Source of the DNA: Candidatus Scalindua sediminis
GTDB taxonomy: Bacteria > Planctomycetota > Brocadiia > Brocadiales > Scalinduaceae
Assembly: GCA_008636105.1 (NCBI GenBank)
Contig: VSDH01000001.1
Coordinates: forward strand, 195,068-227,067
Length of the DNA stretch: 32,000 nt
Direction: 5' to 3'
The notes below the pieces were generated by a model. It did no database searches and was not told where the DNA came from. It saw only the letters and a program-made list of their open reading frames with translations. The position numbers and the translations under genes were made by a program. This document shows, one piece after another, positions 1-21,591 of the stretch. Each line of letters opens with the position of its first letter. Position 1 is the stretch's first letter.

Positions 1-1038
1 CTTCCCCTGGATGACGAAAAGGGTGGAGTCATCTGTGATTTTTGCCACTCCGTCAGGGCAACGACGGGGGTAGGTAATGCACCTTATATTCTAAACCCTG
101 GTAATGCCGCTGCAATGGAAGGAGGTACGAAATATGGCCCCTTTGACGATTCCCCCGATACGATACATAAAAATAAATTTTCTGAGTTACACACGCGCTC
201 TGAATTCTGCGGGGGATGTCACGATGTATCACACGCGGGAAATGACCTTCCTATCGAACAAACTTATACTGAATGGCGACAGGGACCGTATAATACAGGC
301 GATCCAAAGACATCTGTACATTGTCAGGACTGCCACATGAGACAGCGTCCAGGTTTCCCTTCCACCGGAAGCACTGAACGGCCTGATAATCCGGGGTTTG
401 CAACTCCTGAAATTCTCGGGGGTATAAAGCGCCCGCATATATGGACACACTATTTTGTAGGTGGAAGTGTTGTCCCAATCTCCCTGCCGCCTAACTCAAA
501 AGTACAACCACAGATGGCCGTTGAAAGACTTCAGAATGCCGCAACCCTTGCAATCCATGCTGTTTCTGATGTTCAAAGGATTGGTATGCTCAAATTCCAG
601 GTGGACATAATGAATACTGGTGCAGGACATTATCTGCCCACGGGTCTCACAGAGGTTAGGCAGATGTGGCTTGAGGTTTCTGTAACTGATTCAGAAGGTA
701 ATCTTTTATATCAAAGCGGTACAGTTGATGAGAAAGGAAAAATTGACTCTGAAGCTACAATATACAACACAGTATTTGGAGACGAAAAAGGAGAACCGAC
801 TTTATTAGTATGGGCTGCAACACACATTATCTCAGACAATCGCATTCCCCCAAAAGGGAAAAAGGAAGAACATTTCGCTTGTTTAGTACCGAATGATGTA
901 AAAACACCTATAAAGATAACGGCCGTATTAAATTATCGCAGCGCACCGCAGCATGTTGTGGATGAACTTCTGGGAGAAAAGTCAATAAAGTTCCCTATAA
1001 TTAAGATGACGGAGTTATCAACGGAAGTTGATTTATAG
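1..1038 (+). CDS. multiheme c-type cytochrome (5' end cut by the window edge)
   Basis: Frame 1 is open from nt 1 (LPLDDEKGGVICDFCH...) to TAG at 1036-1038, so the ORF-track Met at 115 is internal. There are three CXXCH haem motifs: CDFCH 34-48, CGGCH 208-222, CQDCH 322-336. The C-terminal ~230 aa carry no haem motif. Confidence 0.85.
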   Translation, partial: LPLDDEKGGVICDFCHSVRATTGVGNAPYILNPGNAAAMEGGTKYGPFDDSPDTIHKNKFSELHTRSEFCGGCHDVSHAGNDLPIEQTYTEWRQGPYNTGDPKTSVHCQDCHMRQRPGFPSTGSTERPDNPGFATPEILGGIKRPHIWTHYFVGGSVVPISLPPNSKVQPQMAVERLQNAATLAIHAVSDVQRIGMLKFQVDIMNTGAGHYLPTGLTEVRQMWLEVSVTDSEGNLLYQSGTVDEKGKIDSEATIYNTVFGDEKGEPTLLVWAATHIISDNRIPPKGKKEEHFACLVPNDVKTPIKITAVLNYRSAPQHVVDELLGEKSIKFPIIKMTELSTEVDL

Positions 1039-3604: not shown

Positions 3605-3916
3605 TCATTTCATAAGTGAATATATTCGTTTGACATCCGTCAAAGCCTTGTCTGTGGGGACGAGTGGTGTTACTTCTATATCGGTAAAGAAAGGAAATAG
3701 TGGGAGGTTTGTTACGATCTGGTCAAGCTCCTCGTTTGAATCAGCTTCAATAATGGCAGTAGCCCCTCTCCTGCCAGCTAATTTTCCACCCGCAAGGATT
3801 TTGCCTCTTTTTTGCATCCTGATAAAATATTCCCATTCCTTGACAACAAATCCAAGAAAATCCTTAACCGGGATATCAGGTAGTTTCTTTATTTCAACTT
3901 TTAATAAAAAGATCAT
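3605..3916 (-). CDS. muconolactone delta-isomerase-like protein
   Basis: 103 aa. The motif LPLFPFFTDIEVTPL resembles the MIase family motif LPLFPYMDIEVxPL, and size and ferredoxin-like layout are similar. Confidence 0.6.
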   Translation of the reverse strand: MIFLLKVEIKKLPDIPVKDFLGFVVKEWEYFIRMQKRGKILAGGKLAGRRGATAIIEADSNEELDQIVTNLPLFPFFTDIEVTPLVPTDKALTDVKRIYSLMK

Positions 3917-4271: not shown

Positions 4272-5009
4272 TTATATCGCCAATCCCCCGTCAACGGTCA
4301 GGACATGTCCTGTTATATATTTTGCATCGTCTGAAAGCAAGAACAATGCTATTTTCGCAACCTCCTCAGGTGTACCAAACCTCTTTAAGGAAGTCATATC
4401 TGTCATCTTTTTCTTGTATTCATCTGGGAGTGAAGAAGTCATATCTGTTTCTATAAATCCACATGCAATGGCATTCACATTAATATTTGCCTTGCCAACC
4501 TCTTTTGCAAGGGACTTTGTAAAGCCAATCATCCCTGCCTTTGATGATGAATAATTAACCTGCCCGGCCACACCAGCAATACCACTAACTGAAGTTATAT
4601 TAAGTATGTTTCCTCTTTTCTGTTTGATCATGGTCATTATCACAGCTTTAGAAAAATTATATACACTTTTAAGGTTTGTGTTAATCACATCGTCCCAATC
4701 GTTTTCTCCCATCAGGGCAAGAAGTTTATCCTTAGTGATACCCGCATTGTTTACTAAGTAATCAATTTGTCCGAATTCGTCTTTTACGTCTTTGACCATA
4801 TTCTTGGCCGCTTCAAAATCTGAGACGTCTACCTTCTTTGCCACTACCTTGACTCCGTGTGATTCTACCTCCTTTACCAGGGTATTTGCCAGTTCATCAC
4901 TCTTGGAATAATTAAAAACCACATTGCAACCGTTCCTTGCCAATTCAAGTACGATTGCTCTCCCGATACCTCTGGTACCACCTGTTACTATTGCCGTTTT
5001 GTCTTTCAT
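4272..5009 (-). CDS. fabG: 3-oxoacyl-ACP reductase (SDR)
   Basis: 245 aa with TGGTRGIGRAI (cofactor loop), NNAG, the Ser of NITSVSG, and the catalytic YSSSK (YxxxK). Length and order are classic for FabG. Confidence 0.92.
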   Translation of the reverse strand: MKDKTAIVTGGTRGIGRAIVLELARNGCNVVFNYSKSDELANTLVKEVESHGVKVVAKKVDVSDFEAAKNMVKDVKDEFGQIDYLVNNAGITKDKLLALMGENDWDDVINTNLKSVYNFSKAVIMTMIKQKRGNILNITSVSGIAGVAGQVNYSSSKAGMIGFTKSLAKEVGKANINVNAIACGFIETDMTSSLPDEYKKKMTDMTSLKRFGTPEEVAKIALFLLSDDAKYITGHVLTVDGGLAI

Positions 5010-5043: not shown

Positions 5044-5091
5044 AATCCCCCCTCCATTCCCCCCTTTAGGAAAGGGGGGTTAGGGGGGATT
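5044..5091. repeat. nested G5/C5 hairpin (terminator-like), family copy 1
   Basis: AATCCCCCC-TCCATT-CCCCCC-TTTAGGAAA-GGGGGG-TTA-GGGGGGATT. On the minus (sense) strand it is followed by TTTTCTTTATC. It overlaps the last codons of the crotonase gene (...SPLTPLS*). Confidence 0.6.
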
Positions 5092-5884
5092 CAACAAGCT
5101 TACGACGCATCATTTCAGCAAAGAGACCTACTTCATACTCGATTCCTTTTTTTGTGTCATTATCCATCGCATAATTTATACATTTCTTCATTGTATATAT
5201 TGCCGTATCGTTGTTCTCTGCCAACATACCTGCAAAATCTATTGCCTCTTTAAGAACTCCTTTAACCGGTGCAAGTTTGTTAACCAGACCCCACTGTAAG
5301 GCAGTCTCGGCACGAATCATCTTTCCAGAATATAACATCTCCTTGGCCCTGGCAGCACCTATCACTTTGGGCAGTCTTATCGTTCCACCAAGACCCGGAA
5401 TTATACTCAATTCGGGTTTTGCCTCAGGCAGACTGAAAAATGCAATTTCAGAAGCTATACGGATATCACACAATAAGGCAAGTTCAAGTCCAGCGCCTAT
5501 GGTAACACCGTTGAGAGCCGCAATCAGCGGTTTCTTACAATTTTCAATCTCCATATACATCTCGTGAGCCCTTACAAATCTATCATAATTCTTTTCGGCT
5601 ACTAACCCAGATATCCACGAACCGAACAATTCTTCTCTATCAGCGCCATCACAGAAAACGCCTCTTATACTACTTGTTATTATTATTGATGTTATCTTTT
5701 CGTCTTTCTCATAAGAATCTATCTTGTCATATATTGCATCTAATAACCAGGATCCTATAGAATTCCTCGGGGGTTTCTTCATCTTGATAATACCAGCATA
5801 TCTATTGTCTTGAAGTTTTACCTCTTCACATTCCAAGTGCTGGTATCCTGAATTGTCCCCTCTGTTCATTCGTATATCTTTCAT
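5066..5884 (-). CDS. enoyl-CoA hydratase/isomerase (crotonase) family protein
   Basis: 272 aa with FCDGAD, GVTIGAGLELALLCDIRIA and FSLPEAKPELSIIPGLGGTIRL. Both Glu positions expected for hydratase chemistry appear present (PE..., AETA). The start lies 3 bp after the upstream stop. Confidence 0.88.
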   Translation of the reverse strand: MKDIRMNRGDNSGYQHLECEEVKLQDNRYAGIIKMKKPPRNSIGSWLLDAIYDKIDSYEKDEKITSIIITSSIRGVFCDGADREELFGSWISGLVAEKNYDRFVRAHEMYMEIENCKKPLIAALNGVTIGAGLELALLCDIRIASEIAFFSLPEAKPELSIIPGLGGTIRLPKVIGAARAKEMLYSGKMIRAETALQWGLVNKLAPVKGVLKEAIDFAGMLAENNDTAIYTMKKCINYAMDNDTKKGIEYEVGLFAEMMRRKLVESPLTPLS

Positions 5885-5887
5885 AGT

Positions 5888-7942
5888 CTAAACCCTTAAG
5901 CCTGCTTCAAATCCTTCATGAATTGCTTCAAGTGCGGTTCTAACACTTACACAGTCACCTATTTTATATAACTCATCTATCTTTCCATCTAATCCTTTGA
6001 AAAGACTTTGATTGGATTTATATCCAGCCGCTATGACAACCGTATCCGCAAGAAGAAAATTATCTCTTTTATCTTTTTCATAGGTAATACGGATTTTCTC
6101 ATCTATATCCTTTGAATTAGATGAAGCCTTTAATTTGTTAATGTTATTAATATTTTTAAACTCTTTAACATTTACACCCGTTATACTATTAATTCCCGCA
6201 TCTTTTATTTGCTTTAAGATTATCCATCTGGTTGAGATACCAAACCTTCCTCCAATCTTGTTTTTCATTTCCAGGATAGTAATATTACGTTTACCCCGTG
6301 ACGTGAGTTCTACCAGCTCATCCCCTTTTATGACATTATTTTTTAAAAGAAAGCATGCAACATCCGGTTTCATTGCTCCCATTTTTGCAACGTGAAGGGC
6401 AATCTCACAACCTATCGTACCTCCGCCTATAATTACGACTTCCCTGCCAACTTTTACTTTATTGTCAAATACATCTTCGGCCACAACGACATTCCTTTCT
6501 TTCACACCCGGAATGCCAGGTACAATCGGAGTCCCCCCTACAGCCGCAATCACGGCATCCGGTTTTAGTTCTTTTATCGTTGCCATATCTGCTTTTTTGC
6601 ATAGCTGTATTTTTACGTTCAACTTCTTTATTTGGGTTTCTAAGAAATTGATAACATTTTCTATTTCTTCTCTTCCCGGAGGAATGTATGCATATCTTAA
6701 TTGCCCACCCAGGACATTAGTCTTCTCATATAAGTGCACTTCATGCCCTCTTAATGCAGCAACTCTCGCAGCTTCCAGACCTGCTGGTCCACCACCAATA
6801 ACCATTACCTTTTTCTTCTTTTTGGCTTTTTTAATTTTGTATTCTCTTTCTTTACCAGCTCTGACGTTATATAAGCAAGAAATAGATTTGAAGTTTAGCA
6901 GAGAATCGAAGCATCCTTGATTACAGGCAATACACCTCCTGATGTCGTCGAATTGCCTTTTCTTATACTTTTTTGGCAACTCTGGATCTGCTATTAAGGG
7001 TCTTCCTATCGATATTATATCTGACTGGCCATTATCTAAAATTTCTTCGGCTAATGCTAAATCATTTATCCTTACAGATCCGATTACGGGCACGTTTACA
7101 TTATCCTTAATCTTTTCCGATAAAAAGATATAAGACATCCTTGGGATGGCCATAAGCATTATGGGTGTGCGGCTCTCATGCCAACCGGGAGAAACATTAA
7201 ATGCATCAACACCCGCCTTTTCCAGCTCCTTTGCTATCTCAACACTCTCATCTATCTTGAGGCCATCAGCTATAAAATCGTCTCCGGACAGACGGAATAT
7301 TATTGGAAATTTCTTTCCCACTTTTTTCTTTGTTGCAATTACTATTTCTTTTGCAAAATTTATTCTATTTTTAAGACTTCCACCATATCTGTCTTTTCTC
7401 TTGTTAGTTGCCCTGGTGAGAAATTGATTGATCAGATAACCCATACCGCCGTGTATCTCTACTGCATCAAAGCCTGCCTTCTTTACCCTCACTGTTGCAT
7501 TTACAAAACCTTCTATTACCCTCTTAATCTCTGGTATAGTTAGTGCATGTGGTGCCTGCTTTATGTTAACGTGTGCTATACTTGATGCTGATACAGGCTG
7601 CATCTTTGTAAAAAAAGAAGATGCGCTCCTTCCTCCATGAAGTAATTGTGCGGCAACCTTGACATCATATTTATGGATCGTATCGGTTAATTTTTTTAGT
7701 CCCGGTATAAACTCATCCTTATCCAGGCCGATTATGCTCTTCCATACTTTGCCGGCCATTTCAGGATAGCATCCACCAACCACAATCAATCCTACTCCGC
7801 CACGAGCCCTTTCTATATAGAAATCAATAAAACGCTCGTTTATAAAACCGTCTGACGCAAAACCGAGGTCCATGGCCGACATGGCAAGCCGGTTCTTAAC
7901 TTCTATATTACCTATTTTTATTGGTTCATATAGTTTACTCAT
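5888..7942 (-). CDS. 2,4-dienoyl-CoA reductase-like flavoprotein (OYE TIM barrel + 4Fe-4S + FAD/NAD(P) domain)
   Basis: 684 aa. It has an N-terminal NADH:flavin oxidoreductase pattern, a Cys cluster CIACNQGC...SC, and then the Rossmann motif VMVIGGGPAGLEAA. This matches the architecture and length of FadH. Confidence 0.9.
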   Translation of the reverse strand: MSKLYEPIKIGNIEVKNRLAMSAMDLGFASDGFINERFIDFYIERARGGVGLIVVGGCYPEMAGKVWKSIIGLDKDEFIPGLKKLTDTIHKYDVKVAAQLLHGGRSASSFFTKMQPVSASSIAHVNIKQAPHALTIPEIKRVIEGFVNATVRVKKAGFDAVEIHGGMGYLINQFLTRATNKRKDRYGGSLKNRINFAKEIVIATKKKVGKKFPIIFRLSGDDFIADGLKIDESVEIAKELEKAGVDAFNVSPGWHESRTPIMLMAIPRMSYIFLSEKIKDNVNVPVIGSVRINDLALAEEILDNGQSDIISIGRPLIADPELPKKYKKRQFDDIRRCIACNQGCFDSLLNFKSISCLYNVRAGKEREYKIKKAKKKKKVMVIGGGPAGLEAARVAALRGHEVHLYEKTNVLGGQLRYAYIPPGREEIENVINFLETQIKKLNVKIQLCKKADMATIKELKPDAVIAAVGGTPIVPGIPGVKERNVVVAEDVFDNKVKVGREVVIIGGGTIGCEIALHVAKMGAMKPDVACFLLKNNVIKGDELVELTSRGKRNITILEMKNKIGGRFGISTRWIILKQIKDAGINSITGVNVKEFKNINNINKLKASSNSKDIDEKIRITYEKDKRDNFLLADTVVIAAGYKSNQSLFKGLDGKIDELYKIGDCVSVRTALEAIHEGFEAGLRV

Positions 7943-7954
7943 ATTTTTTAACAG

Positions 7955-8115
7955 CTAAATTGAGCGATTTTATATTTCATGTTACTGTAGCCGCAGGCTT
8001 TAGCCTGCGTTTCTCATCATCTGATGGGTATAAGAAATTTCACGTAAGTTACGCCCCCATAGCTTCCTTGCGTAAGCTAGGAATGGGGGCGGCTACACAA
8101 ATCGCTCAATTTAGG
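7955..8115 (+). mobile_element. MITE-like element, copy A (161 bp)
   Basis: Perfect 16-bp TIRs: CTAAATTGAGCGATTT (7955-7970) and AAATCGCTCAATTTAG (8099-8114). Identical 6-mers TAACAG flank it at 7949-7954 and 8116-8121. Inside are GTAG-REP hairpins at 7987-8009 (+) and 8052-8096 (-). It starts 13 bp upstream of the FadH-like start codon. Confidence 0.85.
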
Positions 8116-8301
8116 TAACAGCCATTATGTCACGTTAGTAATACCCTGAAAGCATGAAAATGCGTCAATGTCTATAGATTTCCGATCCCGACTGAGTCGG
8201 GTCTTGGAGTAGCTTCAAGGGGCGCCTCGGGCGACAAGTCGGAAATGACATTATTGGCTCTGGATAGCCTACATTTCGTTTTTGCAATTCCCGCTCTCTC
8301 T

Positions 8302-8325
8302 GTCATTCCTGCGAAGGCAGGAATC
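8302..8325. repeat. GTCATTC...GAATC hairpin
   Basis: GTCATTCCTGCGAAGGCAGGAATC has an 8-bp stem ATTCCTGC/GCAGGAAT with a GAAG loop. It lies inside the hairpin-rich spacer 8122-8390. Confidence 0.6.
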
Positions 8326-8390
8326 TATTCATTTAGCTCATTCCCTCCCCCGTCATGCTTTTTGGCGGACATAAGCGGGTATCTGTTTTG

Positions 8391-9614
8391 CTAAATTTTC
8401 ATAATAGTTAAACAGGAGTCATTCCCTGAATAATCAAACGAGTTTATGAGTACCGAGCTTATGTCTTTTTCCAGTTTTTCATTGATTATGTTTAAGTTAC
8501 ATCCAGGGGCCTTCTCTACATTAATAGTTGGAGGTATTAAATCATTATCTATGGAAAGTACAGAAGCTGCTGTTTGCATGGCGCCTGACGCACCATAACA
8601 TTCTCCCAAAATAGACTTGATAGCACAAACAGGTATTTCTTCACCCCTTTCTCCAAACAATTCTTTAATGGCTTTTGACTCAATCAGGTCCTGTAACTTG
8701 CTCGAATTACCATTCGCATTGATTAAGTCTATGTCATCAGGGGATAACTTAGCATCATCGATGCACATTTGCATCGCATTCTTGGCTTTTTTAACTCTTT
8801 TATCAATGTCATTTTTTTTGTTACCGGCAAAGATACTTCCATAACCGGAAATTTCAGCATAGACCTTTGCTTCACGATTTAAAGCATAATCAAGGTCTTC
8901 CAATATAAATACATAACTACCCTCACCCATAATAAAACCGTTTCTTCTTTCATCAAACGGCATGCTAGTCTCGCTTCCAGAACCATTAGCCCTTGCCAAT
9001 AATTTTCTCATATAAAATATGATGTATAAATCCAGTGAAATCTGCTCAATCCCACCTGCTATGATCACCTTTGCCTTACCACTCTGTATAAGTTTATAGG
9101 CATTACCTATCGCATCAGTGCCTGAGGTAAAGCCGGAAGAAATCGTCCTGGCAAAACCCTTTATCTTGAAAACAACTGAGGAATAATTTATGGATGAATT
9201 TAGTGCAACATCATAGCTAAGCATTGGCGAGAGTTCCGATGGATTTTCCCTGACAATATCATGAAAATAATCAGTGGTTTGAGAGAAATTCCCGAGTGAA
9301 GAACCAATAAGTATTCCAGTTTGATTTGATAACTCATCATCAATATTTAAGCCAGCATCATCAAGCGCTAATTTTATACTTGAAGCAAGAAATTTAGTCC
9401 CCTTATTAAGATATTTTAATCCTTTACGTCCTATAAATTCTTCAGCTTTTAAATCCTTTACTTCTGCTCCTTTTTTAGACTCATATTTTGATAAATCCAG
9501 ACATTCCATAGGGGCTATGCTTGAATTACCTGAAACAAGATTCTTCCAGAACTCCTGATGTCCAATACCTATTGGGGATACAACCCCAATACCAGTAATT
9601 ACTGTTTTTTTCAT
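8391..9614 (-). CDS. beta-ketoacyl synthase paralogue lacking the Cys-His-His triad (CLF/KS-beta-like)
   Basis: 407 aa that aligns without gaps to the neighbouring FabF across the active-site blocks. TISSGFTSGTDAIG replaces NACSSGNHAIA (Cys->Phe162, codon 9129-9131). INANGNSS replaces INAHGTGT (His->Asn301). SILGECYGASG replaces SMIGHTMGAAS (His->Glu338). Confidence 0.9.
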   Translation of the reverse strand: MKKTVITGIGVVSPIGIGHQEFWKNLVSGNSSIAPMECLDLSKYESKKGAEVKDLKAEEFIGRKGLKYLNKGTKFLASSIKLALDDAGLNIDDELSNQTGILIGSSLGNFSQTTDYFHDIVRENPSELSPMLSYDVALNSSINYSSVVFKIKGFARTISSGFTSGTDAIGNAYKLIQSGKAKVIIAGGIEQISLDLYIIFYMRKLLARANGSGSETSMPFDERRNGFIMGEGSYVFILEDLDYALNREAKVYAEISGYGSIFAGNKKNDIDKRVKKAKNAMQMCIDDAKLSPDDIDLINANGNSSKLQDLIESKAIKELFGERGEEIPVCAIKSILGECYGASGAMQTAASVLSIDNDLIPPTINVEKAPGCNLNIINEKLEKDISSVLINSFDYSGNDSCLTIMKI

Positions 9615-9821
9615 TTTAAAATGCTTTTACAACACCCACCAAACTATCCATTGGGCAGGCCCGCCTGCCATTTGTCGGGCAGGGAGGACACGGGGGAAAA
9701 TATTCTCATGACCACCAAAGCGATTCCGACAGACATTTTCTTTGTGACTTGTGGTCATGAATGTTTCATTATCAAAACCTAATGTAAATTACGCTCCATG
9801 TGTACGCTCATAATCACCATA

Positions 9822-10375
9822 GTAGCCGTCCGCCTAGGCGGACGTTTATTCAAACAATTGCACTTAAGATATCTTCTAAATCACATCCAATTGAACCCTT
9901 GAAACGGTACTCCTGCCAATGAGAAACAAGACCTTTCCTTACAGGGTTATCCAGTATATATCTGACTTGTGTTGGTAAATCTTCATTCTTTTTTATTATA
10001 TGGTCATAAAAGTCTTTCTGCCACCTGACACCTATTCTGTTTCTTGACATCCAGAAACCAGTCTTTTGTTTATATCCTGTGACTATTTTTAGTAAATCTA
10101 CATCTTCATGAGTACCTGTTATTATCATGTGCTGGTGGTCGGGCATGAAACAATATACAGGGATTATACATTTATTTTTTTTGGCAACGTTTTTAAGAAT
10201 ATTCGTAAAAATATTTATGACTTCTGTATCCGAAAAGAGACATACCTTATCTTTTATACACATAGTTAAGTAAACAGATACCTCTCCTATGTAAAATTCC
10301 CTTGGCAATCTGTGCTGCTTTTCTTTTATTTTTGTATTCATAGACTTTTTTTCGCAGGCTGAAGCCTGCGACTAC
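9822..10375 (-). mobile_element. RAYT unit: Y1 transposase gene flanked by inverted GTAG-REP hairpins
   Basis: Left REP: GTAGCCGTCCGCCTAGGCGGACG (9822-9844, +). Right REP: CGCAGGCTGAAGCCTGCGACTAC (10353-10375), the reverse complement of GTAGTCGCAGGCTTCAGCCTGCG. The feet point outward and the hairpins lie next to the gene. Confidence 0.75.
9850..10341 (-). CDS. IS200/IS605-type Y1 (HUH) transposase, REP-associated tyrosine transposase-like
   Basis: 163 aa with the HUH-type motif PDHQHMII and the C-terminal catalytic-Tyr block VRYILDNPVRKGLV. Size is typical of RAYTs. Confidence 0.82.
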   Translation of the reverse strand: MNTKIKEKQHRLPREFYIGEVSVYLTMCIKDKVCLFSDTEVINIFTNILKNVAKKNKCIIPVYCFMPDHQHMIITGTHEDVDLLKIVTGYKQKTGFWMSRNRIGVRWQKDFYDHIIKKNEDLPTQVRYILDNPVRKGLVSHWQEYRFKGSIGCDLEDILSAIV

Positions 10376-10387
10376 TATACACGGACA

Positions 10388-11596
10388 CTATAGCTTACTG
10401 AAAATATTTGTAACATTATTTCCACCAAAGGCAAATGAATTATTCAATACGCAATTAACTTCTAACTCACGTCCTTCATTTGGAACGTAATCCAAATCAC
10501 ACTCAGGGTCTGGAGTTTCATAGTGTATGGTGGGTGGAACTGCATTATTTTTAATCGCCAGGCAGCTCACAACAGATTCTATCGCACTTGCAGCGCCCAT
10601 TGTATGGCCGATCATAGATTTTATAGAACTAACAGGAATCTCTTTTGCACGCTCCTTAAAGACTGATTTTATGGCTAACGTTTCCATCCTGTCATTTAAG
10701 GGTGTTCCGGTACCATGTGCATTAATGTAGTCAATATCCTTGTAAGAAATCTTAGAAGCAGAAAGAGCATCTAACATAGCCTTTATTGCTCCGGCTCCCT
10801 CAGGATGTGGAGCCGTCATATGATGTCCGTCACAACTCATTCCGTAACCTTTCAATTCAGCATAAATATTAGCATTTCTCTTTGATGCAAAATCAAACGA
10901 CTCCATCACCATTATTCCTGCTCCTTCTCCAATTACGAGTCCCTTTCTATTTTTGTCAAAAGGCTGACATCTCTCAGGAGCTAAAGCCTTTAAATTGTGA
11001 AAATGTGTAAACTCAGTTTGTGGTATAAGTTCGCCTCCACCTACAAGCATCACATCAACCTTCCCTTCTGATAAAAGATCAAGGGCCCATGCAATAGCAT
11101 GGTTACCCGAAGAACATGCATTTAACGATACCATGTTTGGCCCTTCAAACCCAAAATCTTCAGAAAGCAAAGTTGTTATGGATGATGGTGGGTATGTTAA
11201 GGCAACGCCCATGTCGAATCCATTTGCTTTGTCCTCAGGTGCATTGCGTAGCAGGTATTCAAAGGGGGGTAGTTCACCAGCAAGAGTTCCAATTGCAATC
11301 CCAAACCTTTCACTATCATACCTGGTAATATCATTTAAACCACTATCTTCTAAAGCTTCCTTCGCAGCAGAATAGGTATATTTATGTATTGTGTTTGCTG
11401 TGGTCTCATTTTCAAAAGTAGTGTCAATTTTAAAATCCTTGACCTCACATACACGGTGTACCCTATACTTTGAGGTATCAAAGGATTTTATCTCTGCCGT
11501 ACCATCCTTACCATTAACGAGCGCATCCCATGCATTCTTAACACCAATACCATTGGCTATTACTAATCCCAAACCCGTAATAACAACTCTTGGCAT
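10388..11596 (-). CDS. fabF: beta-ketoacyl-ACP synthase II-type (active-site complete)
   Basis: NACSSGNHAIA (Cys), INAHGTGTPLND (His), SIKSMIGHTMGAASA (Lys/His), NNSFAFGGNN. I prefer the ATG at 11596 (MPRVVITGLGLV, preceded by AAAGGA) over the track's GTG at 11662, which adds 22 atypical residues. Confidence 0.9.
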   Translation of the reverse strand: MPRVVITGLGLVIANGIGVKNAWDALVNGKDGTAEIKSFDTSKYRVHRVCEVKDFKIDTTFENETTANTIHKYTYSAAKEALEDSGLNDITRYDSERFGIAIGTLAGELPPFEYLLRNAPEDKANGFDMGVALTYPPSSITTLLSEDFGFEGPNMVSLNACSSGNHAIAWALDLLSEGKVDVMLVGGGELIPQTEFTHFHNLKALAPERCQPFDKNRKGLVIGEGAGIMVMESFDFASKRNANIYAELKGYGMSCDGHHMTAPHPEGAGAIKAMLDALSASKISYKDIDYINAHGTGTPLNDRMETLAIKSVFKERAKEIPVSSIKSMIGHTMGAASAIESVVSCLAIKNNAVPPTIHYETPDPECDLDYVPNEGRELEVNCVLNNSFAFGGNNVTNIFSKL

Positions 11597-11856: not shown

Positions 11857-13326
11857 TTAAGCCTTAATACTTGCCAAATCCAGGGTTTTCCTATTTTTTA
11901 ATGTTTCGTATTGCTCCATGGCAACCTCGTAAGCTCCAGAAGTCTGAAGCTCTCTCAGATTAATTAACAAATGTTTGAAAACATCCTGCCAGTCAAGATT
12001 AACCCTGAAGGCAAACATTGCTGCATTGAGATTATTTAATTCTGTTTTTGCCCTCCTGAATTTTTCTCTTATCAGCTCAGTAGAATATATTTTTTCATAA
12101 ACGTACTCTAAACCATCAATAAACTCTTGAAGTGAAAGTTGCGTTAAAACATAAGTTAGATGATGTGATGTGTAATAAATCCAATCTTCAGGAAAATTTG
12201 TTCTGAACAGCCTATTCCCACTATTAAGTCTTTTATATAATGGAGTATTAATGAACGGGCACAAAATGCCACAAGTCATTATATCGATCTTTGCATCTAA
12301 TATAAAATCAACTACTTCTTTAAAGCTCTCAGTTGTATCACTGTCATTCCCAAAAACCATAGTCCCCCAAACAGCAAGCCCATGTTTTCTTATGTTTTTT
12401 ACGGCTTCTTTATATTTATCTATCGTTATTCGCAGGTTAACTCCCTTATTCATTGTCTTTAGCGCTTCCTCATTGATAGATTCTATACCAATAAGTACTC
12501 CAACACATCCACTCTTTACCATATAGTCTAGAGTTTCATCATCCTTATATATATTCAATGAGGTGAATCCAAACCAGTTCTGGTAAATGCCTCTTTCAAC
12601 CATCTTCTTAAAAAGATCTCGAACCCTTTCATTAGATTTCTTGCTATGGCCGTAGAAATTCTCATCTGTCAGGATGAGTCCCCTATACTGCCCTTTTATT
12701 TTTTCCAGCTCACCCAAAACATCATCTACAGGTCTCTCTCTATACTTTCTACCCTGAAACTGTGGTACTGAACAGAATTCACAACTGAAAGGGCATCCTG
12801 CGGTGGTGATTATGCCGGAATATCTATACTTATATTTATTCTTCAAAAACTCTCTATCAGAAAATATGTCCTTATACTTTTCCATAGGAGTTAAGCCACC
12901 ATCATACAATTTTTTTAGATTGTTATTTTCAAAATCAGAGATTATTTCTTCCCAAATCGAAACTGCTTCCCTTATAATTACAGAATCTACATATTTTGCT
13001 GCTTCATCGGGATGGCTAGTTGCATGCACTCCACCCATTATCACGGGAATTCCATTTTTTCTACACGCTGTAGCTATTTGATATGCCCTATTAGCCTGAT
13101 AACTTACAGACGTAATCCCTACCAGGTCTGGCTTATCAAAGAGCAAATTCTCACCCTTCTCATCTACTGCCAGTTCCTGCGTCTCATCTATTATGTCTAC
13201 TTCCCAATTGTTGGGTGTCAACGTCTTCAGGTAACCCAAATTTACAGGCATCTGATTTAATACCGAAACATTTTCCTCTCCAACATTGCCAATCGGATGG
13301 GGATTTATAAGTATCAATTTTCTCAT
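11857..13326 (-). CDS. B12-binding domain radical SAM enzyme (class B type)
   Basis: 489 aa. The N-terminal region looks like a cobalamin-binding Rossmann fold (ILINP..., DLVGITSV, GIPVIMGGVHAT). It is followed by the CX3CX2C cluster motif TTAGCPFSCEFCSV. Confidence 0.88.
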   Translation of the reverse strand: MRKLILINPHPIGNVGEENVSVLNQMPVNLGYLKTLTPNNWEVDIIDETQELAVDEKGENLLFDKPDLVGITSVSYQANRAYQIATACRKNGIPVIMGGVHATSHPDEAAKYVDSVIIREAVSIWEEIISDFENNNLKKLYDGGLTPMEKYKDIFSDREFLKNKYKYRYSGIITTAGCPFSCEFCSVPQFQGRKYRERPVDDVLGELEKIKGQYRGLILTDENFYGHSKKSNERVRDLFKKMVERGIYQNWFGFTSLNIYKDDETLDYMVKSGCVGVLIGIESINEEALKTMNKGVNLRITIDKYKEAVKNIRKHGLAVWGTMVFGNDSDTTESFKEVVDFILDAKIDIMTCGILCPFINTPLYKRLNSGNRLFRTNFPEDWIYYTSHHLTYVLTQLSLQEFIDGLEYVYEKIYSTELIREKFRRAKTELNNLNAAMFAFRVNLDWQDVFKHLLINLRELQTSGAYEVAMEQYETLKNRKTLDLASIKA

Positions 13327-13350: not shown

Positions 13351-13418
13351 GCAGGGTGGGCATTGCCACTAAAAAAACATTCGTTCGTGAATGGAACGGT
13401 GGGCAATACCCACCCTAC
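13351..13418. repeat. REP doublet (inverted pair) between acpS and the radical SAM gene
   Basis: 13398-13418 reverse-complements to GTAG-GGTGGG-TATTG-CCCACC. A degenerate partner, GCAGGGTGGGCATTGCCAC, sits at 13351-13369 in the opposite orientation. The GTAG foot overlaps the acpS TAG stop (13415-13417). Confidence 0.6.
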
Positions 13419-13813
13419 TCTTCTCTCTTGTTATACTCTGAATTAGCAGGTACTAATAATGCGTGCGCAATAGCATAATCCTTGCAATGTGATAATGAGA
13501 TTGTTATCTCACCAATGTTTTTCTCCTTTGCCAATTCTCTTGCTCTGCCATATAGATTTACGTAAGGTCTCCCCGATTCTTCGTTTAACGTTTCTATGTC
13601 AGTCCACTTCATCCTGTCTCTCAACCCTGTTCCAAATGCCTTAAGCACAGCTTCTTTTGAGGCAAAGCGTGCAGCGTAATGCTGAAAACAGTTTTTCTTG
13701 GATTGGCAATATTTTACTTCATCCTCTGTATATACTCGCCTAATAAAATTCTTGTGTGTACCGAAAACCTTCTCAATTCTTTTAACTTCAATAATGTCTA
13801 TTCCCGTATACAT
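13415..13813 (-). CDS. acpS: holo-ACP synthase (4'-phosphopantetheinyl transferase)
   Basis: 132 aa with MYTGIDIIEVKRI..., FASKEAVLKAFGTG and ISLSHCKDYAIA, the canonical AcpS blocks and size. Confidence 0.9.
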   Translation of the reverse strand: MYTGIDIIEVKRIEKVFGTHKNFIRRVYTEDEVKYCQSKKNCFQHYAARFASKEAVLKAFGTGLRDRMKWTDIETLNEESGRPYVNLYGRARELAKEKNIGEITISLSHCKDYAIAHALLVPANSEYNKREE

Positions 13814-17119: not shown

Positions 17120-17667
17120 GTGTTAGGTAATTCATTAAAATAGAACCACTTAAACCAGCCAGATTTCTTACTTTTTCAATTGCCAGCACTTAATTATAGG
17201 GATTCGTCTTATACCTGAAAACAAAGAGCAAATTTTTTGTCTAATAGGGGCAAAATATAGAATTTTTGAGACATGTAAACCAAATTACCTTTGAAGTTGT
17301 AAGGCACCGTAATTACAGGACCTAGCCCTCGGGTAGACAAAACTTAAAAAAGTGCCATAAGATACTTTAATACCGTAGTTAACAATTTCTATCATTAAAC
17401 TCTCCGAGATCACCCCTTTTTGTACTAGCAACTCAAAATAACACTAACAATCCTAAACGATCTAGGTGGTAATACCATAGTTTGTTTCATTTTTTAAACT
17501 TGTAATGTCGAAGGTTTTATGAAAAAATAAATAGGGATGCAAGGTATAAATGATCGAATTTGGCGCCTTTTACTCACTTTATACCTGTATTACTGCGCAA
17601 GAGATATAACTTCACACGGTGGAACTCCCCAGATTTAGCTGCACAAGCAGTAGCCAAGGAGAAAAAT

Positions 17668-20403
17668 ATGCAAACCGATGATAAAGATGATGATATAAAA
17701 CATCAGAATTCTTACAAAGACAAAATCGAGGAAAAGTTAGAGAAGGTAAAGCTTAGGTATAATCTTTTCAGATGTGAAAATACATATCTAACTGTTTTTA
17801 CGATTGGACTGGCAATAGCTCTAATCACCATTATTGTCCAGAAATTCGTCGATATACCACCCTATACATATATTATCCTTATTTCCTTATTCTCAATTTA
17901 CTTCTTCCTGAATCTGGCAATAACAATTAAGAAATGGATTGGGAAGTCTGAGGCTGCAAAGATATTAGATGAGAAAATGCATTTTAAGGAAAGACTTGTC
18001 ACCGGCCTAGAATACGCCGAGCAGACAGAAAAGAATAAGTTCTTTGATATGCTTGTAGATGATATTACAAGTAAGCTTGACGGTAAAAGCATAAAGAATA
18101 CCCTCCCTCATAAGTTTCCAAAAGCAACAAAGTTTTTTATACCTGTATCCATACTACTTTTAATTCTTTTGCTTTTCCCTTATCTTTATCCTGAAAAGTT
18201 AGAGCAAATAATCACCGATATACAAGAATCAATTGTCGAGAAACCTGGTTTGCTAAATAATACTCTTGAAAAACCTGAAACCAAAGAGGCAGAAGACATT
18301 GTCGCTGAAAAAAAGGATGAAGAAAAATCAAAAGAACCTCAGGAGGAACAAAAAGACAAAAAACTGGCAGGAACAGAGACTGATAAAACTCAAAAAGAAC
18401 AACAGGCGCAAAAAACAACCAGTCCATTACAAAATGAAATCTCGAAGTTACTAAGTAAAATTAACTCAACATTTGATAAGCTTGAAAACAAGTCGAAAAC
18501 AGAAGACAAAGCAGAAGGTGGAAAATCTAAACTTTCTGATCTGAAAGCAGGAGAAAGCCAGAAGAAGGAAGATGAACCAAAACAGATAGCTAAAACAGAA
18601 AAAGAACAGTTAGAAGGCAAAGAAAAAGAGCCTACAAAAACTGCGGATGCATCTGATTCTGATGAAAAACCTCCTGAACAAGAACAAGCAAAGGATCAAA
18701 AGAGAAAACAAAGGCCCAAGATTCCCGAATCGAAACTATTGCAAAAGCTCGCAAAACTCCTCAAGTCTCAAAAAGACATGGAGAATTTCCCTCAGCCAAG
18801 TATTCCTTTGGGTGGAATGGATAAAGATCAGGCTGATTCATTAAAGGACAAATCAAGCCAGAGCAAACAATCAGCGTCTTCTGCTTCAAAAGATTCTTCC
18901 AGCTCACCTCAGCAAGAATTACCACAAGAAGAATTAAGTAAGGGAACTTCTCAACCTGACAAATCTGAAACTAAACCTTCTGGTTCGGGTGATAAAAATA
19001 TGCCAGAAACCCAACAACAAGAAACTAATGCAGGCACTGAAGACAAAGTTACAAAAAAACAAGGAGATGTAAAAAAGAGCGACAAAGCTTCCTCTCAAGT
19101 GCCTGAAGGAGCAGATACTCCAGCGAAAGGGCAAAAGGGATCCAGCGATGATCTTAAAGATAAATTAGCACAGGCAGACAAAAAAACAGGCGGAACAGGT
19201 TCGCAGACAACCCCTTCACCTTCTGCCAGAGAAGATACGGAACTACCACAAGAACAACAAATGAAAGACACCCCTGATACGGAGAAATTAGATAGCAAGT
19301 CAACGGGTGGTACTGAACAAGCAAAACAAGAAGGCGGTGGTGAACAAGGAGAATCTCAAGGTGCGGGTGGTACTAATGTTGCATCCGGTAAAGGTAAGGA
19401 GTCGGGATCAGGGGCGGAACAAAAAGGTGCAGGTAAGGAAGCAGGCGAAGGGCAGAAAGTAGCGGGTAAGGAACCAGGTGAAGGACAGAAAGGTACAGGC
19501 AAGGGATCAGGTACAGAACAGAAGGGTGCGGGTACTGAACCAGGTGAAGGGCAGAAAGTAGCGGGCAAGGAATCAGGTGCAGAACAGAAGGGTGCGGGTA
19601 AGGAAGCAGGCGAAGGGCAGAAAGTAGCTGGCAAGGAATCAGGAGAGGGACAGAAAGGTGCTGGCGAGAAATCAGGTACAGAACAGAAGGGTGCGGGTAA
19701 GGAAGCAGGTGAAGGGCAGAAAGTAGCGGGTAAGGAAGCAGGTGAAGGACAGAAGGGTGCGGGTACTGAACCAGGTGAAGGACAGAAAGTAGCGAGTAGG
19801 GGATCGGGTAGCCCTATAGGCTCGCCGCAAAGGCAAACGATGAATAATCAAGGAATGACTGGAGGTAGTAAGAGTAACGCACAAAGTAGTGCCGACTTGA
19901 AAAATAAAATCGCTAGTCAAATGGAAGATCTATTCAGGCAGATTTCGAATTTAGAAAAGAAAATGGGATTAGATGTTAGTGATAACATGAAAATGGAAAA
20001 AGGGTTGAATGATATAAGTAAACTAAAGCAAGAGGGCATTGATAAAGAAAAGCAAAGGGAATCAAATGAGTTAAGGAGAGATATTAGTGAGATTGCTGCA
20101 ATACCTGGAAGCGAACCAGGAAAGAAATTATACTCTTCTGAACCAGAAAAGATTGAAACACCTGAAAGTGCTGAAAAGTTTAAATTGAAATTAGAGGGAA
20201 TTAAAGACGAATCTGGAGCAAAAAGGGAAACCGTATCTACTGGCAAAGGAGAAGCTACGACAAAAAGAAGACTCCCAACAGTAGGTTACGACGATACTGT
20301 GGAACTAAGTAAGCAACAAGCAGAAGAAGACGCAATAAAAAAGACTTCAATACCATTAGAGTATGAGGAAATTATTAAGAAGATACATTCTGAAAAGGAG
20401 TAG
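17668..20403 (+). CDS. membrane-anchored low-complexity (E/K/Q/S/G-rich) protein, first gene of the MoxR operon
   Basis: I prefer the ATG at 17668, with AAGGAG 6 nt upstream, over the track's TTG at 17560. There are hydrophobic segments near the N-terminus (LTVFTIGLAIALITIIV, IILISLFSIYFFLNLAI, FFIPVSILLLILLLFPYL) and about 700 aa of low complexity, including 11-aa tandem repeats. The stop lies 3 nt before the MoxR start. Confidence 0.8.
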   Translation: MQTDDKDDDIKHQNSYKDKIEEKLEKVKLRYNLFRCENTYLTVFTIGLAIALITIIVQKFVDIPPYTYIILISLFSIYFFLNLAITIKKWIGKSEAAKILDEKMHFKERLVTGLEYAEQTEKNKFFDMLVDDITSKLDGKSIKNTLPHKFPKATKFFIPVSILLLILLLFPYLYPEKLEQIITDIQESIVEKPGLLNNTLEKPETKEAEDIVAEKKDEEKSKEPQEEQKDKKLAGTETDKTQKEQQAQKTTSPLQNEISKLLSKINSTFDKLENKSKTEDKAEGGKSKLSDLKAGESQKKEDEPKQIAKTEKEQLEGKEKEPTKTADASDSDEKPPEQEQAKDQKRKQRPKIPESKLLQKLAKLLKSQKDMENFPQPSIPLGGMDKDQADSLKDKSSQSKQSASSASKDSSSSPQQELPQEELSKGTSQPDKSETKPSGSGDKNMPETQQQETNAGTEDKVTKKQGDVKKSDKASSQVPEGADTPAKGQKGSSDDLKDKLAQADKKTGGTGSQTTPSPSAREDTELPQEQQMKDTPDTEKLDSKSTGGTEQAKQEGGGEQGESQGAGGTNVASGKGKESGSGAEQKGAGKEAGEGQKVAGKEPGEGQKGTGKGSGTEQKGAGTEPGEGQKVAGKESGAEQKGAGKEAGEGQKVAGKESGEGQKGAGEKSGTEQKGAGKEAGEGQKVAGKEAGEGQKGAGTEPGEGQKVASRGSGSPIGSPQRQTMNNQGMTGGSKSNAQSSADLKNKIASQMEDLFRQISNLEKKMGLDVSDNMKMEKGLNDISKLKQEGIDKEKQRESNELRRDISEIAAIPGSEPGKKLYSSEPEKIETPESAEKFKLKLEGIKDESGAKRETVSTGKGEATTKRRLPTVGYDDTVELSKQQAEEDAIKKTSIPLEYEEIIKKIHSEKE
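19387..19788 (+). repeat. in-frame 33-bp tandem repeat array (about 12 units)
   Basis: There are 11 exact-length 33-bp units at 19426-19788 encoding GAGKEAGEGQK / VAGKE(P/S/A)GEGQK / G(T/A)G..SGTEQK variants. One degenerate unit lies upstream, and a decayed unit lies downstream at 19789-19815. Confidence 0.9.
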
Positions 20404-20406
20404 AAT

Positions 20407-21465: not shown

Positions 21466-21591
21466 TTAATTAGTTCCTTCACCGTCTGAACGAAGTCGGG
21501 CAGGTAGTCGCTAATTTATAGCTGTACGACAAAAAGGAGCGAATGTTAGTCAAAGTGACCGTATGTAGGAAAGAACAGGAGTAAAATTGTA

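What the first reader, a model, noticed from the sequence alone, without database searches (positions are those of the whole stretch)
8391..9614. FabF paralogue with all three catalytic residues replaced (Cys->Phe, His->Asn, His->Glu): a chain-length-factor-like partner
The active-site blocks align without gaps to the neighbouring intact KS:
- GFARTISSGFTSGTDAIG against the ...NACSSGNHAIA block, giving Phe162 (codon 9129-9131) at the nucleophile position.
- INANGNSSKLQD against INAHGTGTPLND, giving Asn301.
- IKSILGECYGASG against IKSMIGHTMGAAS, giving Glu338.

The fold-defining glycine-rich blocks and full length are retained. That argues for a maintained, non-catalytic structural role, as in the KS-beta/CLF of type II PKS and aryl-polyene systems. 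Those usually carry Gln at the Cys site. A Phe/Asn/Glu combination is not one I recognise.
Basis: seen in the sequence. Interest (0 to 1): 0.75.

Follow-up and report, generated by a model that had tools for sequence, protein, structure and literature searches.

The report
Inactive ketosynthase partner in anammox bacterium
This gene encodes a catalytically dead copy of a fatty-acid chain-extending enzyme; it most likely pairs with the active copy encoded next to it in a marine anammox bacterium, its unusual residues were tabulated in a related species in 2009, and a sister pair was shown in 2026 to work as such a two-part enzyme.

Summary
ORF 8391-9614 (-) is a full-length ketosynthase (KS) fold with Phe162, Asn301 and Glu338 at the Cys/His/His positions.

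The window comes from Candidatus Scalindua sediminis, an anammox bacterium.

This protein is not the published amxFabFmut of ladderane "Cluster I". It is the orthologue of its paralogue, Kuste2805 of Kuenenia stuttgartiensis:
- Rattray et al. (2009) tabulated Kuste2805 as Phe163/Asn298/Asn300/Cys302/Lys328/Glu333/Gln342.
- Kuste2805 sits in the cluster AcpS, B12-radical-SAM, FabF, "non-canonical FabB". The window has the same gene order.

The gene is maintained:
- Phe/Asn/Glu is invariant in about 38 Scalindua orthologues and in two other anammox lineages.
- dN/dS is 0.06-0.11, like the neighbouring genes.
- The gene always follows an intact KS, with a 4-nt overlap in one relative.

The paralogous Cluster I pair was shown in a 2026 preprint to form a KS/chain-length-factor-like heterodimer. 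The same role is therefore the best reading here, by homology only.

The "unrecognised" Phe/Asn/Glu combination is already in the literature and is common in related KS partners. I rate this a new member of a known kind, of modest interest. The untested point is what this second pair does.

The parts
8391..9614 (-). KSmut: 407-aa ketosynthase-fold protein without a catalytic triad. It is the Scalindua orthologue of Kuste2805 ('non-canonical FabB') and the proposed non-catalytic partner subunit.
   Evidence: Searches give the ORF and the Pfam match. One search finds a 100% identical protein in a Ca. Scalindua sediminis MAG. One search gives the Kuste2805 residue pattern. Searches give the clade and the 56% identity to the Loosdrechtia orthologue.
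9129..9131 (-). Codon TTT = Phe162, at the position of the nucleophilic Cys
8712..8714 (-). Codon AAT = Asn301, at the position of the first catalytic His
8601..8603 (-). Codon GAA = Glu338, at the position of the second catalytic His. The conserved Lys333 lies at 8616-8618.
9204..9218 (-). Helix-loop-helix segment Ser133-Ala137. It aligns with the tunnel-lining Phe135/Thr138/Val139 of B. fulgida amxFabFmut; here the residues are Ser133/Val136/Ala137.
   Evidence: One search gives the alignment (register checked by hand against the motif MDFPNTVL). Searches give the role of these residues in the preprint and the conservation of the motif LSPMLSYDVALNSSINY.
10388..11596 (-). Intact KS partner (Kuste2804 type, 402 aa from the ATG at 11596) with Cys161/His294/His331 and gate Phe390
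   Evidence: The type II KS clade has 100% bootstrap support. Orthologues are 402 aa long.
11857..13326 (-). B12-binding radical SAM enzyme (Kuste2803 type), upstream in the same cluster
   Evidence: PF02310 + PF04055. Synteny. for Kuste2803.
13415..13813 (-). Holo-ACP synthase (AcpS, Kuste2802 type), first gene of the cluster
   Evidence: PF01648. for the cluster in other genera.
5888..7942 (-). OYE/FadH-like Fe-S flavoenzyme, a candidate enoyl reductase. It lies downstream of KSmut in Scalinduaceae and Subterrananammoxibius.
5066..5884 (-). Crotonase-family enoyl-CoA hydratase, a candidate dehydratase
   Evidence: An ECH gene also follows mut_II in L083.
4272..5009 (-). FabG 3-oxoacyl-ACP reductase
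   Evidence: TIGR01830, 323.8 bits, above the cut-off of 297.75. Synteny.
3605..3916 (-). Muconolactone-isomerase-like small protein, conserved at the end of the Scalindua cluster
   Evidence: PF02426. Present at the same place in L001, L085 and L086.
9615..10387 (-). 773-nt spacer between KS and KSmut. It carries an IS200/Y1-type (REP-associated-like) transposase gene (9850-10341) and a REP-like hairpin (10354-10369). It is an insertion specific to this genome.
   Evidence: PF01797. for the hairpin. The two genes overlap by 4 nt in L085 and abut in L001 and L003.

Best explanation
The ORF is the Candidatus Scalindua sediminis orthologue of Kuste2805. It is the triad-less member of a second ketosynthase pair that anammox bacteria carry in addition to the Cluster I pair amxFabF2/amxFabFmut.

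Shown:
- It has a ketosynthase fold with Phe/Asn/Glu in place of Cys/His/His, so it can neither be acylated nor decarboxylate malonyl-ACP by the canonical mechanism.
- It is conserved under purifying selection.
- It is always encoded directly after a triad-intact KS, in the cluster AcpS, B12-radical-SAM, KS, KSmut.

Inferred from the paralogous, experimentally characterised pair:
- It forms a 1:1 heterodimer with the upstream KS.
- It stabilises that subunit and completes the acyl-binding tunnel at the dimer interface through its helix-loop-helix segment.
- It thereby acts like a chain-length factor, while all chemistry happens on Cys161/His294/His331 of the KS.

More speculative: the residues that narrow the tunnel in the Cluster I partner (Phe135, Val139) are Ser133 and Ala137 here. 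The pair may therefore accept a longer or bulkier acyl chain. In Scalindua it probably works with the co-clustered FabG, crotonase, OYE-type reductase and B12-radical-SAM enzyme on an ACP encoded elsewhere.
For: Fold and substitutions.

Source organism.

Identity with the Kuste2805 type:
- Rattray 2009, Table 2 gives Phe163/Asn298/Asn300/Cys302/Lys328/Glu333/Gln342 and the cluster kuste2802-2805.
- The window has F162/N301/N303/S305/K333/E338/Q347 and the same gene order.
- The Loosdrechtia orthologue P0450 has F/N/N/C/K/E/Q, 56% identity, an identical helix-loop-helix motif and the four-gene cluster.

Paralogy to Cluster I:
- The window protein is 39% identical to B. fulgida amxFabFmut. Scalindua has separate proteins 65-68% identical to it, for example S. 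rubra P0355/P0413 alongside P0027.
- One contig, L083, carries both pairs in tandem, and BLAST groups them reciprocally.
- The NJ tree gives 99% support for type I mut, 100% for KS type I and 100% for KS type II.

Selection: dN/dS is 0.058-0.110 for KSmut, 0.047-0.148 for KS, 0.08 for OYE and 0.045 for rSAM.

Coupling: 4-nt overlap in L085, and adjacency in 7 loci from at least 4 lineages.

Natural KS-KSmut fusion proteins of about 800 aa exist in the wider family.

Heterodimer, activity only when the two proteins are co-expressed, and the effect of Phe135/Val139 on chain-length preference are shown for the paralogue (bioRxiv 10.64898/2026.05.19.726425).
Against: - No experiment addresses this pair. 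Kuste2804/2805 were expressed in E. coli only as insoluble protein, with no new products (PMC4790861).
- S. brodae amxFabFmut alone crystallises as a homodimer, so heterodimer formation is not obligatory for the fold.
- In this genome the KS/KSmut junction is split by a 773-nt transposase insertion, so translational coupling is lost.
- The AlphaFold model is of low confidence at residues 108-162, the segment that would line the tunnel. No multimer prediction could be run.
- No ACP gene lies in the window.
- The tunnel-width argument rests on a sequence alignment only.
Confidence: 0.78

Rival explanations
1. It is simply the Scalindua copy of the published Cluster I amxFabFmut (orthologue of Kuste3606/Broful02170).
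For: The best PDB sequence hit is 9S5H chain C, B. fulgida amxFabFmut (E 1.8e-88). The neighbour's best hit is chain B.
Against: - Identity to B. fulgida amxFabFmut is only 39%, whereas Scalindua genomes hold a separate protein at 65-68%.
- Cluster I in S. brodae is Scabro02228-02231 and includes amxFabZ and amxACP. Neither is present in the window.
- The tree separates the two types, with 99-100% support for type I mut and both KS clades.
- L083 carries both pairs.
Confidence: 0.02
2. It is a decaying pseudogene or evolutionary relic of a duplicated fabF with no function.
For: All three catalytic residues are lost. In this genome a transposase has been inserted between it and the KS, and a 448-nt repeat-bearing spacer follows it.
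Against: - The reading frame is intact and full length in every orthologue.
- dN/dS is 0.06-0.11, equal to the neighbouring enzymes.
- The replaced residues themselves are invariant.
- Liao et al. [quoted passage not shown]
Confidence: 0.02
3. It is an enzyme or binding protein in its own right. For example, it could recruit or hold a non-canonical (ladderane-type) acyl group, or catalyse a different reaction with Glu338/Asn301, acting as a homodimer rather than as a passive partner.
For: - Rattray et al. proposed that the divergent paralogues might bring non-FAS moieties into fatty-acid synthesis.
- The substituted residues (Phe, Asn, Asn, Glu, Gln) are strictly conserved rather than free to vary, which hints at a specific role for the remodelled pocket.
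- The paralogous amxFabFmut can form homodimers in crystals.
Against: - There is no nucleophile at the acylation site.
- The paralogue alone had no detectable activity, and activity appeared only on co-expression.
- Strict adjacency and congruent trees with the KS, together with natural KS-KSmut fusions, argue for an obligate pair.
Confidence: 0.13
4. It pairs with a different ketosynthase, for example the Cluster I amxFabF2 or the housekeeping FabF, giving mixed heterodimers.
For: Anammox genomes hold up to seven FabB/F paralogues. In this genome the gene is physically separated from its neighbour KS by an insertion.
Against: - Adjacency to the type II KS is conserved in all loci examined.
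- The topologies of the type II KS and mut clades are parallel.
- The preprint reports an asymmetric electrostatic dimer interface in the Cluster I heterodimer and says the structure explains how homodimers are avoided.
Confidence: 0.05

Closest known systems
Kuste2805 of Kuenenia stuttgartiensis ('putative / non-canonical FabB', CAJ73556), in cluster kuste2802-2805 (Rattray et al. 2009, PMC2649909; Javidpour et al. 2016, PMC4790861)
   Same: - The active-site pattern matches: Phe/Asn/Asn/(Cys or Ser)/Lys/Glu/Gln.
- The gene order matches: AcpS, B12-radical-SAM, FabF, KSmut.
- Both are from anammox bacteria.
- The Loosdrechtia orthologue links the two by sequence, at 56% identity.
   Different: - The genus differs. 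Position 305 is Ser rather than Cys.
- In Scalinduaceae the cluster continues with an OYE-type reductase, a crotonase, FabG and a MIase-like gene. In Loosdrechtia it stops after KSmut, and Javidpour et al. describe kuste2802-2805 as a complete cluster.
- I did not hold the Kuste2805 sequence itself, only its published residues.
amxFabFmut / amxFabF2 heterodimer of ladderane Cluster I (Kuste3606/3605, Broful02170/02171; PDB 9S5H, 9S5I; bioRxiv 10.64898/2026.05.19.726425)
   Same: - Closest solved structures by sequence.
- Same architecture: an intact KS next to a triad-less KS.
- Asn and Glu at the two His positions, and Lys and Gln retained.
- A B12-radical-SAM gene 52% identical to the window's lies in the Cluster I-like locus L004.
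- This pair is the experimental basis for the heterodimer and chain-length-factor-like mechanism.
   Different: - It is a paralogue, not the orthologue (39% identity, separate clades).
- It has Val, not Phe, at the Cys site.
- Its helix-loop-helix motif differs: PMDFPNTVLNAPASRA against PMLSYDVALNSSINYS.
- The published Cluster I also has amxACP, amxFabZ and a phytoene-desaturase-like gene.
Ketosynthase / chain-length-factor pairs of highly reducing (polyene-type) type II PKS, e.g. Iga11/Iga12 of ishigamide (PDB 6KXD) and ApeO/ApeC of aryl polyenes
   Same: - A heterodimer of an active KS with an inactive homologue encoded next to it.
- The products are reduced chains rather than aromatic ones.
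- Per the preprint, Iga11 is the closest structural relative of amxFabF2.
- Related non-anammox pairs sit in NRPS/PKS-like clusters with ACP, acyl-CoA dehydrogenase and thioesterase genes (L005).
   Different: - Sequence relationship to these CLFs was not measured directly here.
- The cluster context differs: B12-radical-SAM, AcpS and no ACP.
- The product is unknown.
KS-beta / chain-length factor of aromatic type II PKS (e.g. actinorhodin ActI-ORF2, PDB 1TQY chain B)
   Same: An inactive KS homologue forming a heterodimer with KS-alpha. The genes are adjacent and often translationally coupled. The partner shapes the tunnel and so the chain length.
   Different: There are no cyclase or aromatase genes nearby. 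The nearest sequence and structure relatives are FabF, not KS-beta.

Membership tests
Kuste2805-type triad-less KS of anammox bacteria (type II pair) | Active-site pattern Phe(Cys163)/Asn(His298)/Asn(Thr300)/Cys(Thr302)/Lys328/Glu(His333)/Gln(Glu342), as tabulated by Rattray 2009 | tested here: met
   The window has F162/N301/N303/S305/K333/E338/Q347, compared with Table 2. The only difference is Ser for Cys at one position. Loosdrechtia P0450 has the exact pattern.
Kuste2805-type triad-less KS of anammox bacteria (type II pair) | Gene order AcpS, B12-binding radical SAM, intact FabF-type KS, triad-less KS | tested here: met
   Window genes 13813-8391 on the minus strand. The same order occurs in L001, L003, L085, L086 and L087. 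kuste2802-2805 is described.
Kuste2805-type triad-less KS of anammox bacteria (type II pair) | Sequence clade distinct from the Cluster I partner | tested here: met
   NJ tree with 100 bootstraps. The window clusters with Scalindua (100%), then Subterrananammoxibius (70%), then L083_mutII and relatives (65%). Type I forms a separate clade at 99%. Reciprocal BLAST gives the same grouping. The backbone between the clades is weakly supported.
amxFabFmut of ladderane Cluster I (Kuste3606 orthologues) | Orthology to Kuste3606/Broful02170 | tested here: not met
   Identity is 39%, against 65-68% for the true Scalindua orthologues. The clades are separate.
amxFabFmut of ladderane Cluster I (Kuste3606 orthologues) | Location beside amxACP, amxFabZ and the phytoene-desaturase-like gene | tested here: not met
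   No FabZ, ACP or amine-oxidase gene was found among the cluster genes and ORFs examined. A motif scan found no ACP-like ORF in the window. Compare Scabro02228-02231 and L083.
amxFabFmut of ladderane Cluster I (Kuste3606 orthologues) | Forms a heterodimer with the adjacent intact KS that is active only as a complex | not testable with these tools
   Shown only for Kuste3605/3606 and Broful02171/02170. The structure tool takes single chains.
Chain-length factor (KS-beta) of type II PKS | KS-fold protein lacking the catalytic Cys, encoded next to (often overlapping) the active KS | tested here: met
   There is a 4-nt overlap in L085. In the window itself the junction is interrupted by a 773-nt insertion.
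Chain-length factor (KS-beta) of type II PKS | Gln at the Cys position (aromatic type II PKS) | tested here: not met
   Phe162.
Chain-length factor (KS-beta) of type II PKS | Controls product chain length through residues at the dimer interface | not testable with these tools
   Only the alignment of Ser133/Val136/Ala137 with the tunnel residues Phe135/Thr138/Val139 of the paralogue is available.
[quoted passage not shown] | Cys-His-His triad and a score above the NCBIfam cut-off | tested here: not met
   The triad is replaced. TIGR03150 scores 322.4 bits against a cut-off of 493.75.

The most novel reading that the evidence does not exclude
The Kuste2804/2805-type pair is a second, functionally distinct KS/chain-length-factor-like heterodimer.

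Its partner subunit has small residues (Ser133, Ala137) where the Cluster I partner has the tunnel-constricting Phe135 and Val139. That would open a wider cavity for a bulky, possibly cyclobutane-bearing, acyl chain.

Together with the co-clustered B12-radical-SAM enzyme, FabG, crotonase and OYE-type reductase, it would form a self-contained elongation and ring-forming module of ladderane lipid synthesis. Cluster I would only prime or build the short linear part.
Probability: 0.2. Interest if true: 0.75.

Novelty: new member of a known kind. Interest (0 to 1): 0.3.

Why it matters
How ladderane lipids are made is a long-standing open question, and the candidate genes are few.

This analysis shows that anammox bacteria carry two paralogous modules of KS, dead KS and B12-radical-SAM. 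Only one of them (Cluster I) has been characterised.

The second module is conserved from Scalindua to the Brocadia-like genera. In Scalindua it is fused to a full set of reductive-cycle enzymes. That gives a concrete, testable target: co-express the window's two KS genes and compare chain-length and ACP preference with the Cluster I heterodimer.

Tried and rejected
- **Scan of genome contigs with an alignment of partner sequences.** Only L003, L004 and L005 were useful, and no Scalindua, Kuenenia or Brocadia locus was obtained this way.
- **Two cluster-member look-ups.** They gave almost no organism names. I could not identify the S. brodae protein or obtain the Kuste2805 sequence, so the link to Kuste2805 rests on its published residues and gene order plus the Loosdrechtia orthologue.
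- **The preprint's statement that S. brodae amxFabFmut has Thr at the Cys site.** I first thought this might be an alignment shift of the same protein (SSGFTSG). That idea is rejected, because Cluster I proteins of Scalindua are a different paralogue. In my alignment those from S. rubra and another Scalindua have Val followed by Thr. The S. brodae sequence itself was not checked.
- **First REP-hairpin pattern.** The loop length was wrong and it found nothing. It was corrected.
- **NCBIfam TIGR04072 'rSAM_ladder_B12'.** It scores only 73 bits (cut-off 360) on the window's radical SAM protein, so that model does not describe this enzyme.
- **Foldseek against PDB.** The library predates 9S5H, so it only confirms a FabF-like fold.
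Full report
**1. The observation**

ORF 8391-9614 on the minus strand encodes 407 aa. It matches both Pfam ketosynthase (KS) domains over their whole lengths.

Codon 9129-9131 is TTT (Phe162), 8712-8714 is AAT (Asn301) and 8601-8603 is GAA (Glu338).

BLASTP against the neighbouring KS gives 36% identity and E 7e-68. HMMER alignment to B. subtilis FabF and several MAFFT alignments agree with it. All place these residues opposite the Cys, His and His of active enzymes, with no gaps near the motifs. Lys333 is retained.

The neighbour (10388-11596) has Cys161, His294, His331 and the gate Phe390.

An AlphaFold2 model (pTM 0.82, mean pLDDT 73.7; low confidence at 108-162 and 209-225) superposes on FabF structures with TM 0.88.

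**2. Where the window comes from**

An identical protein is recorded for a Candidatus Scalindua sediminis MAG. The next 119 hits, down to 73% identity, are mostly unnamed metagenome proteins, and nearly all of those that carry a name are Scalindua or Scalinduaceae. The window is therefore from a marine anammox bacterium. Its GC content is 37.6%.

**3. The closest characterised relatives**

The best PDB sequence hits are the two chains of entry 9S5H: chain C for the triad-less protein (E 1.8e-88) and chain B for the neighbour (E 3.6e-124). These are B. fulgida amxFabFmut and amxFabF2.

A 2026 preprint (bioRxiv 10.64898/2026.05.19.726425) reports the following for this pair:
- The two proteins co-purify.
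- They are active (malonyl-ACP decarboxylation, acetoacetyl-ACP formation) only when co-expressed.
- They crystallise as a heterodimer resembling KS/chain-length-factor complexes.
- Phe135 and Val139 of the dead subunit line the substrate tunnel and influence chain-length preference.

**4. The window pair is a paralogue of that pair, not its orthologue**

- The published Cluster I in S. brodae is Scabro02228-02231 and includes amxFabZ and amxACP. The window has neither. Its order on the minus strand is AcpS, B12-radical-SAM, KS, [transposase], KSmut, OYE/FadH-like flavoenzyme, crotonase, FabG, MIase-like. A motif scan found no ACP-like ORF.
- Searching with the B. fulgida amxFabFmut sequence finds separate Scalindua proteins at 65-68% identity, including two from S. 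rubra. S. rubra also has the window-type protein at 88%. The window protein is only 39% identical to B. fulgida amxFabFmut.
- One metagenomic contig (L083) carries both modules in tandem: FabZ, KS, mut, amine oxidase, rSAM, then rSAM, rSAM, KS, mut, crotonase. BLAST sorts the four KS-like proteins cleanly into two types.
- An NJ tree with 100 bootstraps recovers type I mut (99%), KS type I (100%) and KS type II (100%). The window sits in a Scalindua clade (100%) that joins Subterrananammoxibius (70%) and L083_mutII and relatives (65%). Deeper branches among the dead partners are weakly supported.

**5. What it is an orthologue of**

Rattray et al. 2009 (PMC2649909) list three K. stuttgartiensis paralogues with deviant active sites. 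Kuste2805 is given as Phe163/Asn298/Asn300/Cys302/Lys328/Glu333/Gln342. Kuste2802 is AcpS and Kuste2803 is a radical SAM enzyme with a B12 domain. Javidpour et al. 2016 call kuste2804 FabF and kuste2805 'non-canonical FabB'.

The window has F162/N301/N303/S305/K333/E338/Q347 and the same gene order.

A Candidatus Loosdrechtia protein (P0450) is 56% identical to the window protein. It has exactly F/N/N/C/K/E/Q, an identical helix-loop-helix motif (LSPMLSYDVALNSSINY) and the four-gene cluster AcpS, rSAM, KS, KSmut.

I did not hold the Kuste2805 sequence itself. The assignment therefore rests on published residues, synteny and this intermediate.

Liao et al. [quoted passage not shown]

**6. Is it maintained?**

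- Phe/Asn/Glu is invariant in 38 sampled Scalindua orthologues, in Subterrananammoxibius (54% identity) and in Loosdrechtia.
- Nei-Gojobori dN/dS for KSmut is 0.058-0.110 in pairs with unsaturated dS. The KS gives 0.047-0.148, OYE about 0.08, rSAM about 0.045 and FabG 0.04-0.07.
- It is not a pseudogene.

**7. How it most likely works**

Shown:
- The protein cannot be acylated, because it has no nucleophile.
- It lacks both decarboxylation histidines.
- It is conserved and always follows an intact KS. The two genes overlap by 4 nt in L085 and are adjacent in L001, L003, L083 and L087; in L086 a roughly 430-nt spacer separates them.
- The KS and KSmut trees have the same branching order.
- In the wider family there are proteins of about 800 aa whose N-half is Cys/His/His and whose C-half is degenerate, for example P0139 with Tyr/Asn/Glu. 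These are natural fusions of the two partners.

Inferred from the paralogue:
- A 1:1 heterodimer forms in which the KS does the chemistry.
- KSmut contributes its helix-loop-helix to the acyl tunnel.

Speculative:
- The residues aligned with Phe135/Thr138/Val139 of B. fulgida amxFabFmut are Ser133/Val136/Ala137 (register checked against the motif MDFPNTVL).
- In the preprint, the Phe135Gly/Val139Gly double mutant of the Cluster I partner gave the same cross-linking kinetics with all chain-length probes.
- The type II tunnel may therefore be wider.

In Scalinduaceae the cluster supplies a ketoreductase (FabG, above the TIGR01830 cut-off), a crotonase and an OYE/FadH-type reductase. Together with the KS pair this would be a complete, non-canonical elongation set, plus a B12-radical-SAM enzyme. 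The ACP must be encoded elsewhere.

**8. Comparison with known systems**

The protein works like a chain-length factor, but it fails the act-type CLF criterion of Gln at the Cys position.

It is not the Cluster I amxFabFmut. It is a member of the Kuste2805 type.

Related pairs outside anammox bacteria occur in natural-product-like clusters. L005 from a Blastocatellia MAG has an NRPS module, KS, dead KS (Glu/Asn/Glu), ACP, acyl-CoA dehydrogenase, a third KS and a thioesterase. This fits the preprint's finding that amxFabF2 is structurally closest to the ishigamide KS Iga11.

Phe at the Cys site together with Glu at the second His site is frequent among 50%-identity cluster representatives. The combination is characteristic of this family rather than odd.

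**9. Novelty and score**

The residue pattern was published in 2009, and the partner role was demonstrated for the sister pair in 2026. This is a new member of a known kind.

What remains open is the function of the second pair and why anammox bacteria keep two paralogous modules of KS, dead KS and B12-radical-SAM. The window's radical SAM protein is 52% identical to the radical SAM gene of the Cluster I-like locus L004.

Interest is 0.3. The most novel reading that is not excluded has a probability of about 0.2.

**10. Caveats**

- There is no experimental or multimer-prediction evidence for this pair.
- The AlphaFold alignment was shallow (37 sequences).
- The NJ tree has a weakly supported backbone.
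- dS is saturated for the more distant comparisons.
- The Kuste2805 sequence was not examined directly.

Noticed in passing
window 9850-10341 (-), with hairpins at 10354-10369 and about 9835-9852: An IS200/Y1-type transposase gene (PF01797; HUH-like motif 'DHQHMI') sits between the KS and KSmut genes. These genes overlap by 4 nt in a 91%-identical relative (L085). The element is flanked by a REP-like hairpin, so it looks like a REP-associated tyrosine transposase that has split a translationally coupled pair.
   Followed up: partly
window 7993-8008, 10354-10369, 29286-29301, 29895-29910: The REP-like palindrome GCAGGCTnnAGCCTGC occurs four times, against 0.03 expected. All four copies lie between the listed ORFs.
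   Followed up: partly
window 7943-8390: A 448-nt spacer lies between KSmut and the OYE-type gene. It holds a REP hairpin, a perfect 16-nt inverted repeat (7955-7970 / 8099-8114) and another hairpin (8052-8091). In L086 (97% relative) and L001 the two genes overlap by 4 nt, while L085 and L084 also have spacers of about 450-480 nt. It is probably a mobile insertion.
   Followed up: partly
L083 1-12202 (Logan SRR13254584 contig): A single contig carries a Cluster I-like module (FabA/FabZ-like, KS, dead KS with Glu/Gly/Glu, amine oxidase, B12-rSAM) directly followed by two more B12-rSAM genes and the type II pair (Phe/Ala/Glu) plus a crotonase. That makes three B12-radical-SAM genes in 5 kb. The organism was not identified.
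   Followed up: partly
P0123, P0125, P0127-P0129, P0135-P0139 etc. (halves analysed): Many proteins of about 800 aa in public data are fusions of an intact KS (Cys/His/His) with a degenerate KS. The degenerate half can be N- or C-terminal by the HMMER coordinates, and its 'triad' residues are highly variable.
   Followed up: partly
window 3605-3916 (-); L001 15301-15612, L085 12172-12483, L086 11323-11634: A 103-aa muconolactone-isomerase-like protein (PF02426) is conserved just after FabG at the end of the Scalindua cluster. Its role is unknown. It could be an isomerase or cyclase of the pathway, or unrelated.
   Followed up: no
Scalindua Cluster I proteins P0355, P0420: The preprint says the Cys is replaced by Thr in S. 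brodae amxFabFmut. In my alignment the Cluster I proteins of S. rubra and another Scalindua have Val at that column, followed by Thr (TISTGVTSG), and Cys at the first His position. The S. brodae sequence itself was not available to me.
   Followed up: partly
window 11857-13326 (-): The B12-radical-SAM protein scores only 73 bits against NCBIfam TIGR04072 'rSAM_ladder_B12' (cut-off 360). Its best, still sub-threshold, hits are PhpK-type and BchE-type models. It is 52% identical to the radical SAM protein of the Cluster I-like locus L004.
   Followed up: partly
window 115-1038 (+) and 17560-27154 (+): At the left edge of the window lies a haem-binding-motif (CxxCH) protein with a weak match to the multihaem cytochrome ExtKL family. 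Further right, on the plus strand, is a run of large ORFs, two of them with weak, sub-threshold von Willebrand-A-domain matches. Neither was examined further.
   Followed up: no
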